The notes below the pieces were generated by a model. That model was not told the origin of the DNA, searched no databases, and saw nothing but the letters and a program-made list of their open reading frames with translations. The translations under genes were made by a program, and so were the position numbers. Below, piece by piece: positions 2,731-62,695 of a DNA stretch of 64,000 nucleotides (the first letter of the stretch is position 1; each line of letters opens with the position of its first letter). This stretch comes from Eledone cirrhosa (Eukaryota), in NCBI GenBank assembly GCA_964016885.1, contig OZ024743.1:365304001-365368000 (forward strand), written 5' to 3'.

Positions 2731-2826
2731 ACCCCTTGATAAGGTCAGGTAGATTCCCGCCGTTCAAATACTAGTGGCTCAGTTCGGATCTAGCTGTCGA
2801 AACAGCCGGAGCTCATCTCTCGGGGT
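2731..2826 (+). ncRNA. Type I hammerhead ribozyme, U3:A8 core variant (family A)
   Basis: ACCCC-TTGATAA-long stem II (GGTCAGGTAGATTC..GGATCTAGCTGTC)-GAAA-decayed stem III-TC-GGGGT. Confidence 0.75.
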
Positions 2827-2933
2827 CTTGACTATTTTCATATATATCTATCTATCTCTCTCTCTCTCTATATATATATATATATGTGTGTGTGTGTGTG
2901 TGTGTGTGTGTGTGTGTGTGTGTGTATGTGTGT

Positions 2934-3840
2934 AAAAGCTAAACAGAAATAACAATACAATTGGTACAGTATTTGGAAGGAATATATAGCAGGAAGAGGG
3001 TCTTAACGTTTCGGACGCTAGTCCTTCATCAGAAGAAAGTGTGAGAAATTAGATAGATTGAAGAGACGGGCAGGGCGGAATCGGAAAAAATGATTTTAGA
3101 GAAAAATAACAGGTCCATTCATGTTGCCATCTCTGGAAAACTGTTGATGCTGGCGTTTGGTGTATGATAATCCTTTTGAAGAAAAGTGGATGATGTATCG
3201 AGTCTACCTGAAATGGAAAAAACCGTTTTGTATACGTGTGCGCGTGCGAATGCGTGTGCGTGTGTGTGTGTGTGTGTGTGTGTGTGTGTGTGTGTGTGTG
3301 TGTGTGTTGTTATACGTCCGTACGAAGCTAAGAGGATATGTGTGTATATGTAAGTAAAAGAGTGTGTGTGTGCTTGTAAGTACGAAGCTGTGAGCAAAAG
3401 TATGTTAATATAAGGGAGTGTGTGTGTGTATACAGAGCTGTGAAGGGAAAAGTAGAGGTGTGTATGCGTATTTTATTGGTCTGTATCAACTGTAAGAGTA
3501 TATGTTTCTGACCATAACAGAGACATAGGAATCTAGGGGTGAATGTACAAGCGCATGTGTGATAACGGACGGGATAAACGTGACCGGGATGAAAGGTAGA
3601 GAAGTAAGCACGAACATATGTGTGTAATATTAAAGAAATTGGGGAGAGGAGTTGAGTAGGGAACACCGAAGGGCATAGTCAATGTGAGTGGAGGTGTGGG
3701 TCAAGTGTTACAGCGAGGACGAGAACAAGAATGAGAGCCGGGTGGAGTTGTAGGAGAGGACGAGAAGGAACTATGTGCCAGGAGGTTGCGGAGTTTACGG
3801 GCGCGCTTAACTGCGGTGATAAGTGGATTGTGTTGTTATT
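2934..3840 (-). repeat. Dispersed repeat with internal (CA)n and hammerhead near its 3' end (PLE pLTR-like); second copy 50289-50950
   Basis: Clear colinear similarity between 2934-3545 and 50289-50950; hammerhead at 3001-3036. Right boundary approximate. Confidence 0.75.
3001..3036 (-). ncRNA. Minimal type I hammerhead ribozyme
   Basis: TCTT-CTGATGA-A-GGAC(TAGC)GTCC-GAAA-CG-TT-AAGA; the homologue at 50375-50410 has a mutated core. Confidence 0.8.
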
Positions 3841-4559
3841 TCTGTTTACCTTTTACATGCATATATATATCAACGCTTACGTGGACCTCCAAAGTTCGCT
3901 GGATTTTCAAACTGGATTTTCACTCTGAAACAAGATCTACACCTGGAGTTTTCAAGAACTTCCACCAGGAAATATTTTCGTATCACTGATATTTTCTTTG
4001 CTTCTTTCACCACACACACACACACACACACACACACACACACACACACACACACACACACACACACATATATATATATATGAAAACAGGGAAAAAGAGA
4101 CGATTATTAGGAAGAAAAATATATTTTTTCCTTTTTTGTTTCTCTCTCTCTTTTTTCTGGGTTAGAAAATGATTAAAACGAAATGTTTTACTTTGTGTGA
4201 AGTGTTAAGGTATTAGTTGATTTATTTATTATTAAACAATGGCATTTATTTATCTATTTATATATTTAATAATTGACTATTACCGGTTTCACCATTTTTA
4301 TGCATTATCAAATGATAGTGATATGTATTAGTGTGGTGTCGCACATGTTAAACAGAAGGTGCAGAAAGAATAATGTTATTTACAAACAAGGTTTATGAAA
4401 TGAAAAGAAAAAAGAAAAAGGAAAAAAACGTGCATAATGCAGAGCATAAAAAGTCAATATGGAAGAAAAATTAATGTTATTTACAGGCATAGTTATTGAA
4501 GTTAAGCAGATCAAAATGTGTTAATATAGCAAGAGTGCTTAGTTGATATATATATATAT

Positions 4560-5168
4560 GATGGTTGCCCCCTCGTTATCGAGTATGGCCATTGCACGAT
4601 ATAACATTATTAATAATTATCAATTAATGCCATCGTGCAATGTCTGTGCGTAGAGATTTTTTTTTTAAAGTGAAGAAAGACTGTGCACTGAGACAATCCC
4701 ACTCTTTGAGGGACAGTAGCTATAACCCGAAAAGAAGAAAAGATCAACGTCATCGGTAACTAGTAAGCCACAGATTTTATGTCGGCGTTATCCCAGTTTC
4801 CTGAGTTGCTTTCTCCTAGAAGAATGACCTGACAAAGGCTAGGGGCCCTTCACTCCCAGTGGTTTAACCACGCGATCGGATATCCAGCCCGATTATTTCT
4901 ATGTCCTCGCGCATATACATACACATGCATACATGTATATACATTTATACATATACACATATATACATATTTACACATTTTTGGATAACCGTTGACTCAT
5001 GAGTTCCTCCGCCCTTTGTCAGGTTTTGGTTTTTGTCCTGCAGGGTGTCCAAAATCACCTTACTCACCAACTAAACTCGGTGGGGTTGCCGGTTTAGTCG
5101 CCGACGACCCAACCATGCGACAGGTTATACTGGGTTACATATTACCAGTAACACTCAAGAGTGACCCG
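4560..5168 (-). mobile_element. About 0.6-kb non-autonomous retroelement, probably RTE-derived (copies 14122-14684 +, 18449-19078 -, truncated 42493-42550 -)
   Basis: Multiple colinear copies; shared end CTCGATAACGAGGGGGCAGCCATC (consensus) followed by an (ATGT)n tail in most copies; truncated copies keep that end. Confidence 0.65.
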
Positions 5169-5171
5169 ATA

Positions 5172-60240: not shown

Positions 60241-61583
60241 CGACGAGTCTATTAAAAAAGTACTTTAAGTTCTTTTCTTTACCGCTTTCTCGTGAGAAAA
60301 AGCAGTGTATTTGACCTATTTCTAGAACTTCAAGACTAACTGGAGGCAGAGAGGAAGGTACCTTCAAACCAGACACCTGGTTTGAATGTCCGAATGCTTA
60401 CAACTCCCATTAAAAACACAAAATGACCTGGTGTTGGTGGGAAACCAGGCGACTGATTACATTTACCATTCAAGTAGGTCTAGGAGATATTTGAATTCAG
60501 AACGCAAAGAATCAGAAGGAATAGCAAAAGGCATTTTATCTGATGAGCTTACATTTCTGCCATCTTGCCTCCTATTGTGTTACAAACATAATACATTTTG
60601 CTAATAATTTTTAGTGTGAAGTTTCACAAGTATATATTTTTTATAAACTGTATTATTAAAATGGTAGAGAACAGCTCCTGTAATGAGACTACTTTTTGAC
60701 GGCTTTTGACCAATTATGAAGACTTATTAAATCTCATGTTTAAATACGTTCGGCGTTCATTGTTAAAAAGTACACTAGCTGCTAGTTTTTCTGATGTTGG
60801 TCGAGTATTTATATGTCTCACTTATTCCAACTCCCTCTTATTATCTACATGGTATATCTGTGTGTGTGTGTATATATCTGTACGTGTGCGTGCGGGTGTG
60901 GATATCTGTGTCTGTGTGTTTATGTGTGTGGTTTCAGATATATTGGAGCATAAATGGGGAAAGACGTTTTTTTTTTCAAGTACATTTAATTGAAAACACC
61001 GACTTTCTTCTGTTGTTACTATTTTACAGTGTTCTATTTGCAGTTTCTCCTATTTCCTTATTAGTTTCTTCCGTGTTATTATTAGCTAGCTGTAAGTTCT
61101 GCTAGATCATGTTCATGGAAAAACAAGATAACTAAAAGAGTTTAACGGTATACACTTCATCGCCTAGACATACATTCACACAGACATTCATATGCAAACT
61201 TACTCATATACATGCGCATATACTTAAATATGTATATACATATATATATATATGTGTGTGTGTATGTGTATGTGTTACAAAGAGTGAGAGCCCGCCGGCT
61301 GAGCTCTTGCCGTTTTAACAACTATTTCCGGACTATTAACCGAAAGGCCTTTCGGCATCTGGACCTAGCAGGAGCTCAGCCATCGGATCCCGACTCTTTA
61401 TAACCTAACCATATTCTACTACCCCAAGTATCGAGTATTCTGTTGAGTAATGGTCTAAATAGATTTAAACTGGTTATACCCTGATATACAGTATATCTAT
61501 ATAAATATATATATATATATATATATATATATATATATATATATATATATATATATATATATATATATATATATATATATATA

Positions 61584-61954
61584 TTTCGTTTCTGAATTTG
61601 TTTAGCAAGATTCTTTATCTGAAATCGTGTGTTGAAACCGATATTGTTATACTTTGGGAGGGTCATGTTGCCAATAAGAAACACACGCACCAGTTGCTTT
61701 CACTTCAATTTATTATATATTTATAAATTTACAAATTTACAAACTTATAAATTTCTGGTTGGTTGGTTGGTTCCACAACCAGATAGTTGTTTATATATAT
61801 AGTCATAGTCCTTTCGTCACACACTCTGTGACCTCTTCAGTGACTGGGGATTCCTTTCTTCGTTTCTGTGCCTTTCCTTTCTTCTATACTACGCCATTTT
61901 GTTTCTGTTTCACACAGAAAGAAAATGGCGTAGTATAGAAGAAAGGAAAGGCAC
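61584..61954 (-). repeat. Naiad-related pLTR copy with fold-back 5' end
   Basis: MTLPKYNN start at 61666, hammerhead 61801-61845, hairpin 61867-61954. Confidence 0.78.
61801..61845 (-). ncRNA. Minimal hammerhead ribozyme
   Basis: AGTCA-CTGAAGA-G-GTCAC..GTGAC-GAAA-GGAC-TA-TGACT. Confidence 0.8.
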
Positions 61955-62163
61955 ATGCTTTGCAGCATAGTTACGTCCCTTTACGATCTGAGTTCAAATC
62001 CGGCCGAGGTTAACTTTGCTTTTCATCCTTACGGGGGTCGATAAAATAAAGTATATATATATATATATATATATATATATATATATATATATATATATAT
62101 ATATATATTTATAAATATATATATATATATATAAGCTCAAAAGATGGTTAAAAGAGTTCCAAG

Positions 62164-62234
62164 TATTTTATTATGCGCATTTCAAAAACAAATATCATCA
62201 TGGGGTGATATCTGCGTTCTCATCAGATAAAATA
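62164..62234 (-). ncRNA. Type I hammerhead (family E, second copy)
   Basis: TATTTTAT-CTGATGA-long stem II-GAAA-TGCGCA-TA-ATAAAATA. Confidence 0.82.
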
Positions 62235-62601
62235 GGGAGACATGATATGAAGCTTAAAAAGCACTTGTGAAGAGTGAAGTTTTAAATCGACATATGAAAA
62301 ATAAATTAAGATTGATGTATGAGATTGGTAAAAGTGAGGGGGGGGGGGGGTGGAAAATGTAAGGAAGGGCAAGAGATGAGAGTAAAGAATGGTGGGGGAG
62401 GAGCATAAGAAGGAAGGATGAGAGAGGAGAGATGGGTGATAGAGAGATAGCCTTTACAACTTATATTATTTATACTCCAGTCCTACAAACTGTAGAGTGC
62501 TACTTATCCGATATTTGCATTGCTTTATTGTGCTACAATAAAACTCACCTCCTACATTATATATATATATATATATATATATATATATAGGAACAAGTAA
62601 G

Positions 62602-62695
62602 ACCCCGACGGCTGAGCTCAAGCCGTTTCGACGGCTAATTCTGGACTGAATGAAAATTTATTCTGGTATTTAAATAGCCGAGCTTATCAAGGGGT
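62602..62695 (-). ncRNA. Type I hammerhead, U3:A8 variant (family A)
   Basis: ACCCC-TTGATAA-G..CGGCTA..TAGCCG.C-GAAA-CGGCTTGAGCTCAGCCG-TC-GGGGT. Confidence 0.82.

What the first reader, a model, noticed from the sequence alone, without database searches (positions are those of the whole stretch)
2731..62695. Two repeat families carrying the compensatory U3:A8 hammerhead core
Seen: four motifs (2731-2826 +, 62602-62695 -, 6849-6898 +, 24592-24638 -) have full type-I hammerhead topology but TTGAYAA in place of CTGANGA. Both positions change together in every copy. Within family B the helices also differ with pairing preserved (stem I GTAGTC/GATTAC vs GAGCT/AGCTT; stem III TGGTACTACCG vs CAGAGCTCTG), and stem III is unusually long and palindromic. 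Established: C3-G8 is a tertiary Watson-Crick pair and U3-A8 retains activity. Inference: these are selected, family-level variant ribozymes that CUGANGA-only searches would miss. I do not know of their description in cephalopod retroelements but cannot check the literature.
Basis: partly seen in the sequence, partly recalled or inferred. Interest (0 to 1): 0.85.

Follow-up and report, generated by a model that had tools for sequence, protein, structure and literature searches.

The report
Variant hammerheads in two retroelement families
The four motifs are copies of predicted self-cutting hammerhead RNAs carried by two very common jumping elements; the altered core pair is already published, but here one element has swapped the pair at least twice while the other spread with a mismatched pair, which offers a natural test of whether such elements need the cut.

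Summary
The four motifs are at the stated coordinates with core TTGAYAA, and each is the majority form of a high-copy subfamily. Family A (2731+, 62602-) ends the pseudo-LTR of a Hydra-clade Penelope-like retrotransposon. Family B (6849+, 24592-) is a ~314-nt non-coding tandem element of the non-LTR retrozyme type.

U3:A8 is not new: it is published in nature (2011) and in Schistosoma Penelope elements (2014), and this scan noted it earlier in phage genomes, though not in this genome.

Family B is polymorphic: 1,273 C3:G8, 762 U3:A8 and 77 mixed of 2,112 exact hits. The two window copies lie in separate U3:A8 clades, so the pair switched at least twice. Family A has no C3:G8 subfamily among the matches, but 972 of 4,772 hits carry a mismatched C3·A8 core in an amplified lineage, against 'both always change together'. 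Copies 2731 and 6849 are decayed. Cleavage and expression are untested.

Verdict: new members of known kinds, with a useful natural contrast.

The parts
2731..2826 (+). Type I hammerhead, U3:A8 core, family A older subfamily (A2); decayed copy with helix III broken; homologous cut site 2821|2822
2701..2847 (+). 3' end of the pseudo-LTR of a 5'-truncated Hydra-clade Penelope-like element (A2), ending in a TA-rich microsatellite tract
2626..2689 (-). Inverted partial copy of the same pseudo-LTR end
62602..62695 (-). Type I hammerhead, U3:A8 core, family A young subfamily (A1); intact; predicted cut 62607|62606 after GUC
62582..62819 (-). 3' end of the A1 pseudo-LTR, 98-99% identical to the full-length element in L061, ending in (TA)n
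62818..62881 (+). Inverted piece of the element's tail, bounded by (TA)n
6849..6898 (+). Type I hammerhead, U3:A8 core, family B older clade (B2); C·A at the base of helix II; predicted cut 6892|6893 after GUC
6761..7061 (+). About one monomer of the family B retrozyme-type repeat, between (TA)n tracts
6648..6760 (-). Inverted partial monomer (113 nt, 91% complementary to 6922-7034)
24591..24639 (-). Type I hammerhead, U3:A8 core, family B young clade (B1); 6-bp helix I, 4-bp helix II, palindromic helix III; predicted cut 24597|24596 after GUC
24405..24809 (-). About 1.3 head-to-tail monomers of family B
24834..24962 (+). Inverted partial monomer (126 nt, 94% complementary to 24455-24580), bounded by (TA)n

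Best explanation
The four motifs are type I hammerhead sequences with a U3:A8 core, two at the pseudo-LTR end of a Hydra-clade Penelope-like retrotransposon and two in a 314-nt non-coding tandem repeat; they are predicted to cut the element's RNA after GUC, and the small repeat is likely moved by the Penelope enzyme. Shown: family A's full-length copy has two 1.16-kb direct repeats 3.5 kb apart around an RT plus GIY-YIG reading frame. Copies sit in (TA)n, often with an inverted partial copy, and end at discrete points beyond the cut site. Family B has no reading frame or linked parent, forms 314-nt tandems, and its core pair and all three helices covary across subfamilies. Inferred: B transcripts are cut into monomers, most easily as dimers through the palindromic helix III, then circularised and copied in trans into (TA)n. 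Selection on cutting in B's source copies kept positions 3 and 8 paired through at least two C3:G8/U3:A8 switches. In autonomous family A the constraint is looser: A8 stayed fixed while position 3 became C in a lineage that still spread. Because copies run past the cut site, the copied template is either uncut precursor or a re-ligated circle.
For: Full-length element and Hydra motifs (RWR, DKT, YRDDG, CxCx5C linker, CxxC..E..N..C): compared with PMC8557442. Intact linker cysteine and CxH in L053. B monomer 314 nt, 35% GC, longest ATG frame 41 aa; 314-nt spacing in 7 of 16 same-strand neighbour pairs. No shared upstream parent frame among 241 anchors. Core counts 1,273/762/77 of 2,112; about 994 mixed expected if the sites were independent. 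Two changes forced by starred branches in a tree of 113 copies with positions 3 and 8 masked; one U3:A8 clade rejected, AU p=0.003, and p=0.023 with the ribozyme removed. 13 of 15 pairs have double-sided changes in 31 chosen copies; slid controls reach at most 42% paired against 88%. Ends of A at +15-19 (84 of 177) and +95-99 (60 of 177), ends of B1 at +115-119 (55 of 80) from the cut site, like the Penelope tail (PMC11167929). Helix III self-duplexes beat hairpins per strand in all four motifs.
Against: No cleavage or RNA data. 972 family A hits have C3·A8. The 10.1-11.1 pair is unpaired in 16 of 31 B copies. All four isolated motifs fold 2.7-8.8 kcal/mol more stably into non-hammerhead shapes. 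In a mutational scan of another hammerhead, only G3:C8 rescued activity. In an Anolis Penelope element, ribozyme mutants did not affect insertion in vitro. Copies are related, so counts are not independent events; the phylogenetic evidence is two or three changes. No Rfam match in 6 loci. The partner enzyme of B is inferred from shared target and end pattern only.
Confidence: 0.75

Rival explanations
1. The U3:A8 motifs are dead or nearly dead ribozymes that hitchhiked with successful source copies; cutting does not matter to either element.
For: A mismatched C3·A8 lineage of family A made at least 972 copies. Ribozyme mutants leave Penelope insertion unchanged in vitro (PMC11167929). Naiad elements spread without canonical hammerheads (PMC8557442). 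U3:A8 was not rescued in one scan.
Against: In B, two separate double switches left no amplified single-change subfamily among 12 clusters of 3 or more copies. Mixed cores are 3.6%, the level that 2-6% per-site decay would give. Helices I-III covary and the other core bases are invariant in 31 copies, though most of those were selected by a pattern that fixes the core.
Confidence: 0.15
2. Family B is a miniature inverted-repeat DNA transposon that happens to enclose a hammerhead-like stretch.
For: Both window copies are bracketed by 113- and 126-nt inverted repeats. Both orientations occur at 46 of 90 sampled loci.
Against: The arms are inverted pieces of the monomer itself, with variable break points. 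Head-to-tail 314-nt arrays exist. The same inverted-partial structure and (TA)n targeting mark family A and Penelope elements generally.
Confidence: 0.03
3. T3 and A8 arose copy by copy from a CTGANGA consensus, for example by CpG decay.
For: C3:G8 sisters exist in family B, and B2 has C at position 7 before A8.
Against: U3:A8 is the state in 116 of 120 top copies and forms clades. C3 is followed by U, not G, so it is not a CpG. Position 7 is T in B1, A1 and A2. G8 occurs in only 22 family A hits.
Confidence: 0.01
4. All the cores work, including family A's CUGAGAA, through a C·A wobble or a shifted register in which C3 pairs with the G at position 7; family A is then under the same constraint as B.
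For: C3 goes with G7 in 38 of 39 fetched C3·A8 copies, and the rest of the fold is kept in that lineage.
Against: G7 also occurs with U3 in 17 copies. I found no paper reporting activity of such a core, and single changes in this motif had low activity in a scan.
Confidence: 0.3

Closest known systems
U3-A8 minimal hammerheads of Cercyon Penelope-like elements in Schistosoma mansoni (Cervera and de la Pena 2014, PMC4209133)
   Same: Type I hammerhead in pseudo-LTRs, U3-A8 in place of C3-G8, over a thousand mostly solitary genomic copies, palindromic 15.2-16.2 region.
   Different: Family A has a long near-palindromic helix III (17 nt) and a very long helix II, belongs to the Hydra clade, and has a C3·A8 sublineage. 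The parts of that paper I read give no tree of core switches and no assay identified as U3-A8.
Hydra clade of Penelope-like elements, including Hydra-1_Obim of Octopus bimaculoides (Craig et al. 2021, PMC8557442)
   Same: Short single frame, RW(K/R), DKT, CxCx5C linker, no CCHH, (TA)n target, hammerhead near the 3' end.
   Different: All 26 Hydra rows of that paper's hammerhead table have C3:G8. Family A's motifs are absent from its supplement text, and its N-terminus differs from Hydra-1_Obim, so it is a different family.
Non-LTR retrozymes (Cervera and de la Pena 2020, PMC7229834; Li et al. 2026 preprint 10.64898/2026.07.22.740005)
   Same: About 300-nt non-coding tandem monomer, under 45% GC, one canonical-size type I hammerhead, living beside autonomous Penelope elements; a U·U mismatch at the base of helix II as in axolotl HHR_Amex2.
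   Different: No U3-A8 or octopus mention in the 2020 main text, none of octopus or molluscs in the preprint. Family B is mostly dispersed monomers and short tandems with inverted pieces, and circular RNA is not shown here.
Natural U3-A8 hammerheads (Perreault et al. 2011, PMC3088659)
   Same: Compensatory change of the 3-8 core pair, stated to be active in vitro.
   Different: Scattered examples there; here whole mobile subfamilies with C3:G8 sisters in one genome.

Membership tests
Type I hammerhead ribozyme | Core C/U3-U4-G5-A6-N7-G/A8-A9 and G12-A13-A14-A15.1, with U16.1-H17 | tested here: met
   All four motifs; invariant columns
Type I hammerhead ribozyme | Three helices, helix I open-ended | tested here: met
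   Met in 62602 and 24592 and in the subfamily majorities. Not met by the individual copy 2731 (helix III broken); weak base of helix II in 6849
Type I hammerhead ribozyme | Watson-Crick pair between positions 3 and 8 | tested here: met
   Met in the window copies and in 2,035 of 2,112 B hits. Not met in 972 of 4,772 A hits
Type I hammerhead ribozyme | Match to an Rfam hammerhead model | tested here: not met
   0 matches at gathering score in 6 loci, two of which hold canonical-core sisters; none among the 150 of 206 rows listed. A library match is not a defining feature, and the canonical sisters fail too
Type I hammerhead ribozyme | Self-cleavage after NUH | not testable with these tools
   Needs an assay
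Penelope-like element, Hydra clade (family A) | Single frame with RT and C-terminal GIY-YIG between pseudo-LTRs, frame under 3 kb | tested here: met
   L061, about 2.2 kb, broken by stops and frameshifts in this copy
Penelope-like element, Hydra clade (family A) | RWK-like and DKT motifs, CxCx5C linker, CxxC and CxH around E and N, no CCHH | tested here: met
   against the description and the alignment
Penelope-like element, Hydra clade (family A) | (TA)n insertion, inverted partial copies, optional tail | tested here: met
Penelope-like element, Hydra clade (family A) | RT tree placement with reference Hydra proteins | not tested
   No tree with the published references was built; homologues of 39-55% identity, mostly unnamed
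Non-LTR retrozyme (family B) | Non-coding 170-400 nt monomer in head-to-tail repeats, low GC, one type I hammerhead | tested here: met
   314 nt, 35% GC, trimer in L128
Non-LTR retrozyme (family B) | No linked RT frame (non-autonomous) | tested here: met
   No common upstream frame among 241 anchors in fetched loci; a rare parent elsewhere in the genome is not excluded
Non-LTR retrozyme (family B) | Abundant circular RNA | not testable with these tools
   No RNA holder listed
Neptune clade Penelope-like element | CX2-5CxxC linker and CCHH motif | tested here: not met
   Linker is CxCx5C and CCHH is absent; my first label, withdrawn

The most novel reading that the evidence does not exclude
One genome holds a natural controlled experiment on what retroelement hammerheads are for. 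The non-coding retrozyme cannot spread without a paired 3-8 core and has crossed between C3:G8 and U3:A8 at least twice without amplifying an intermediate. The autonomous Hydra element spread to about a thousand copies with a catalytically dead C3·A8 core. Self-cleavage would then be essential for the parasite and dispensable in vivo for the Penelope element.
Probability: 0.35. Interest if true: 0.72.

Novelty: new member of a known kind. Interest (0 to 1): 0.5.

Why it matters
The role of hammerheads in Penelope-like elements is an open question: Craig et al. 2021 call it unclear and allow that the ribozymes merely parasitise the elements, and Frangieh et al. 2024 found cleavage unnecessary for insertion in vitro. 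Here dated subfamilies supply matched natural variants (C3:G8, U3:A8, C3·A8) in nearly identical contexts, each with a copy number as a record of success. A few transcription assays would show whether success tracks cleavage. The U3:A8 core itself is known, so the finding as first stated is of modest novelty. Practically, 36% of family B hits and almost all of family A would be missed by CUGANGA-only searches.

Tried and rejected
Rfam on the window returned microsatellite look-alikes of microRNA families in the 150 of 206 rows shown, and nothing at gathering score on 6 loci. Pfam gave no meaningful family for the family A frame pieces; one homologue hit RVT_1. My first label 'Neptune' was withdrawn for Hydra.

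Search for an autonomous parent of B: six loci had an endonuclease fragment 760-880 nt upstream on the same strand, but they are separate elements, cut off from B by (TA)n or unrelated DNA. Expression: no RNA holder listed. Three contig runs of one sample were laid on 62400-62900 and say nothing about expression or position 3.

Misfolding as the reason for the swap: U3:A8 lowers the predicted folding penalty in 16 of 16 subfamily majorities, including those that keep C3:G8, so it does not explain B. In A1 and the C3·A8 lineage G8 costs 4.6 and 3.2 kcal/mol against 1.3 and 1.1 for C3, but the gap is absent in the other two A subfamilies; kept only as a hint. A constrained double-hammerhead fold crashed and was replaced by helix III duplex energies.

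The order of C3·A8 versus the younger U3:A8 lineages of A is unresolved. Earlier scan notes: none on this genome or sequence. Lunse et al. 2017 and Przybilski and Hammann 2007 are not held and may bear on novelty and on U3:A8 activity.
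Full report
Observation. Copy 2731-2826 has C·C at 15.2-16.2 and a CUC triplet, so helix III is broken. Copy 6849-6898 has C·A at 10.1-11.1 and a U·G at 15.2. Each motif was used to search the 3.0-Gb own genome (525-2,828 first-look candidates, 40 scored, 30 fetched each). The majorities have intact helix III and U3:A8 in 30/30, 30/30, 27/30 and 29/30 copies, with mean divergence 2.4%, 0.3%, 5.8% and 4.9%. 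These are top-scoring copies, so the divergences are low estimates. The variant is a subfamily trait and the two odd copies are decayed.

Family A. Two hits 3.5 kb apart on one strand led to L061. It holds an inverted partial repeat, a 1.16-kb direct repeat, a 2.2-kb frame (broken in this copy) and a second repeat ending in (TA)n. The hammerhead ends each repeat. The frame carries RWR, DKT, YRDDG, a CxCx5C-type linker, YIG and CxxC..E..LN..C without CCHH, the features given for the Hydra clade (PMC8557442; passages). It is not Hydra-1_Obim, and all 26 Hydra rows in that paper's hammerhead table are C3:G8 (supplement part 2 of 59). Copies end at +15-19 nt (84 of 177) or +95-99 nt (60 of 177) past the cut site. 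This is the two-site tail that PMC11167929 traced to internal initiation of reverse transcription (parts 1-2 of 4 read).

Core states in A. An exact pattern gave 4,772 hits, control 0. Of the first 100 listed, counted by eye, 75 were U3:A8, 24 C3·A8 and 1 a spurious join. A slightly stricter pattern gave 972 C3·A8 hits and 22 with G8. The C3·A8 copies are a true U-to-C change with linked diagnostic sites; 38 of 39 fetched also have G7. With the older U3:A8 subfamily as outgroup, a 21-row endonuclease tree nests them among U3:A8 copies (support 80/89, weak). So the mismatch is probably derived and arose in coding, autonomous copies. Its order relative to the younger U3:A8 lineages is unresolved.

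Family B. Flanks show a 314-nt monomer, 35% GC, longest ATG frame 41 aa, in head-to-tail arrays. At 90 sampled loci, some overlapping, 46 had both orientations and 31 had two or more same-strand bodies. No common parent frame lies upstream of 241 anchors. This fits the non-LTR retrozymes of PMC7229834 (passages and part 3 of 6). An anchored pattern gave 2,112 hits: 1,273 C3:G8, 762 U3:A8 and, by subtraction, 77 mixed (3.6%), against about 994 if the sites were independent. The mixed fraction is what post-insertion decay at two sites would give.

Switches in B. I fetched 99 of the first 100 listed hits (three were already held). Of 222 anchors 196 had a readable core; 130 were chosen (all from the pattern sample, 3 incidental, a random few of each BLAST set, the window copies), and 17 truncated ones were dropped. 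With positions 3 and 8 masked, the tree needs two changes, forced by starred branches. Copy 24592 is in a 21-row U3:A8 clade (98) whose sisters are C3:G8; copy 6849 is in a separate 17-row clade (96). One U3:A8 clade is rejected (AU p=0.003; p=0.023 and three changes with the ribozyme cut out). The tree is unrooted. The C3:G8 backbone has the U·U base of helix II and the helix II letters seen in several Hydra rows, which hints that C3:G8 is ancestral and U3:A8 was gained twice; this is inference. In 31 of 35 candidate copies aligned (left out: three second copies from loci already used, and one C3·A8 copy), 13 of 15 pairs show double-sided changes and 88% of cells pair, against at most 42% in slid controls. 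Pair 10.1-11.1 is unpaired in 16 of 31.

Mechanism. Shown: anatomy, counts, covariation, end points. Predicted: cleavage after GUC. Helix III is palindromic, and its self-duplex is more stable per strand than its hairpin in all four motifs, in line with dimeric cutting. The isolated motifs prefer other folds by 2.7-8.8 kcal/mol. Inferred: B is cut to monomers, circularised and inserted in trans by a Hydra-type enzyme, since it shares the (TA)n target, inverted pieces and discrete ends; one direct B-to-A join falls at the cut site (L094). Copies of both families run past the cut site, so the template is uncut precursor or a re-ligated circle. Selection on cutting is well supported for B and doubtful for A. 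In Anolis, ribozyme mutants did not alter insertion in vitro.

What is known. Natural U3-A8 was reported in 2011 (PMC3088659; passages and section 8) and in about 1,300 Schistosoma Penelope hammerheads in 2014 (PMC4209133; parts 1-2 of 4). A pairwise scan of one type III hammerhead found only G:C to rescue (PMC9901934; passages). The giant squid genome paper lists 235 Rfam hammerheads without analysis (PMC6962438; passages). The 2026 preprint links retrozymes to Penelope repeats and does not mention molluscs (part 1 of 5 and passages). PMC11014351 gave nothing relevant (passages). Searches found no description of these families, of U3:A8 retrozymes or of an amplified C3·A8 core. The library lacks most subscription papers, two key papers were not held, and I did not see the supplements of the 2011, 2014 and 2020 papers. 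Earlier scan notes report U3:A8 in phages, nothing here.

Verdict. Real, family-level variant hammerheads in a Hydra-clade Penelope element and a retrozyme-type repeat: new members of known kinds. The headline variant is published. The added value is the repeated switch in B and the mismatched lineage in A, which make the need for cleavage testable. Interest 0.5.

Noticed in passing
window 3036-, 30497+, 31632-, 32440+, 49043-, 50005-, 62234- (start of helix I): Seven further type I hammerhead candidates with the canonical C3:G8 core, most with short palindromic helix III; about 18 such C3:G8 families occur in the fetched loci.
   Followed up: partly
L036:365+, L049:452-, L061:8440+, L206:3968-, also L210 and L302: A third repeat family with a U3:A8 type I hammerhead, long helix II and palindromic helix III, ending near (TA)n; no frame sought.
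   Followed up: partly
L094:1880-1990 (+); L147 (-): Direct joins between family B and family A sequence without (TA)n between. In L094 the join is at the predicted cut site, with a 5-nt shared stretch, suggesting template switching by one enzyme.
   Followed up: partly
window 22725-24370 (+): Broken Penelope/Poseidon-type reverse transcriptase frame next to, but opposite and unlinked to, the B1 copy; clade label recalled.
   Followed up: no
window 55248-56700 (+): 485-aa frame with RT and a C-terminal zinc-finger plus GIY-YIG-like motif, another Penelope-like family with 50-95% relatives in several loci; clade not tested.
   Followed up: no
window 2050-2210 and 31118-31266: Fragments of family A's tail and repeat end without a complete hammerhead.
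   Followed up: partly
window 62621-62637 (-) and 2793-2806 (+): In family A the 3' strand of helix II can pair with the 5' strand of helix III across GAAA, a competing hairpin seen in predicted folds; possibly a folding switch.
   Followed up: partly
window 15155-15817; 46046-46447; 34124-35820: A 38-nt minisatellite of 17 copies; a tandem 212-nt SINE-like unit; frames resembling a hAT-type transposase (labels recalled).
   Followed up: no
L228:2620-2684; L244:2464-2529: A young offshoot of B1 with compensatory changes in helices II and III that keep the palindrome.
   Followed up: partly
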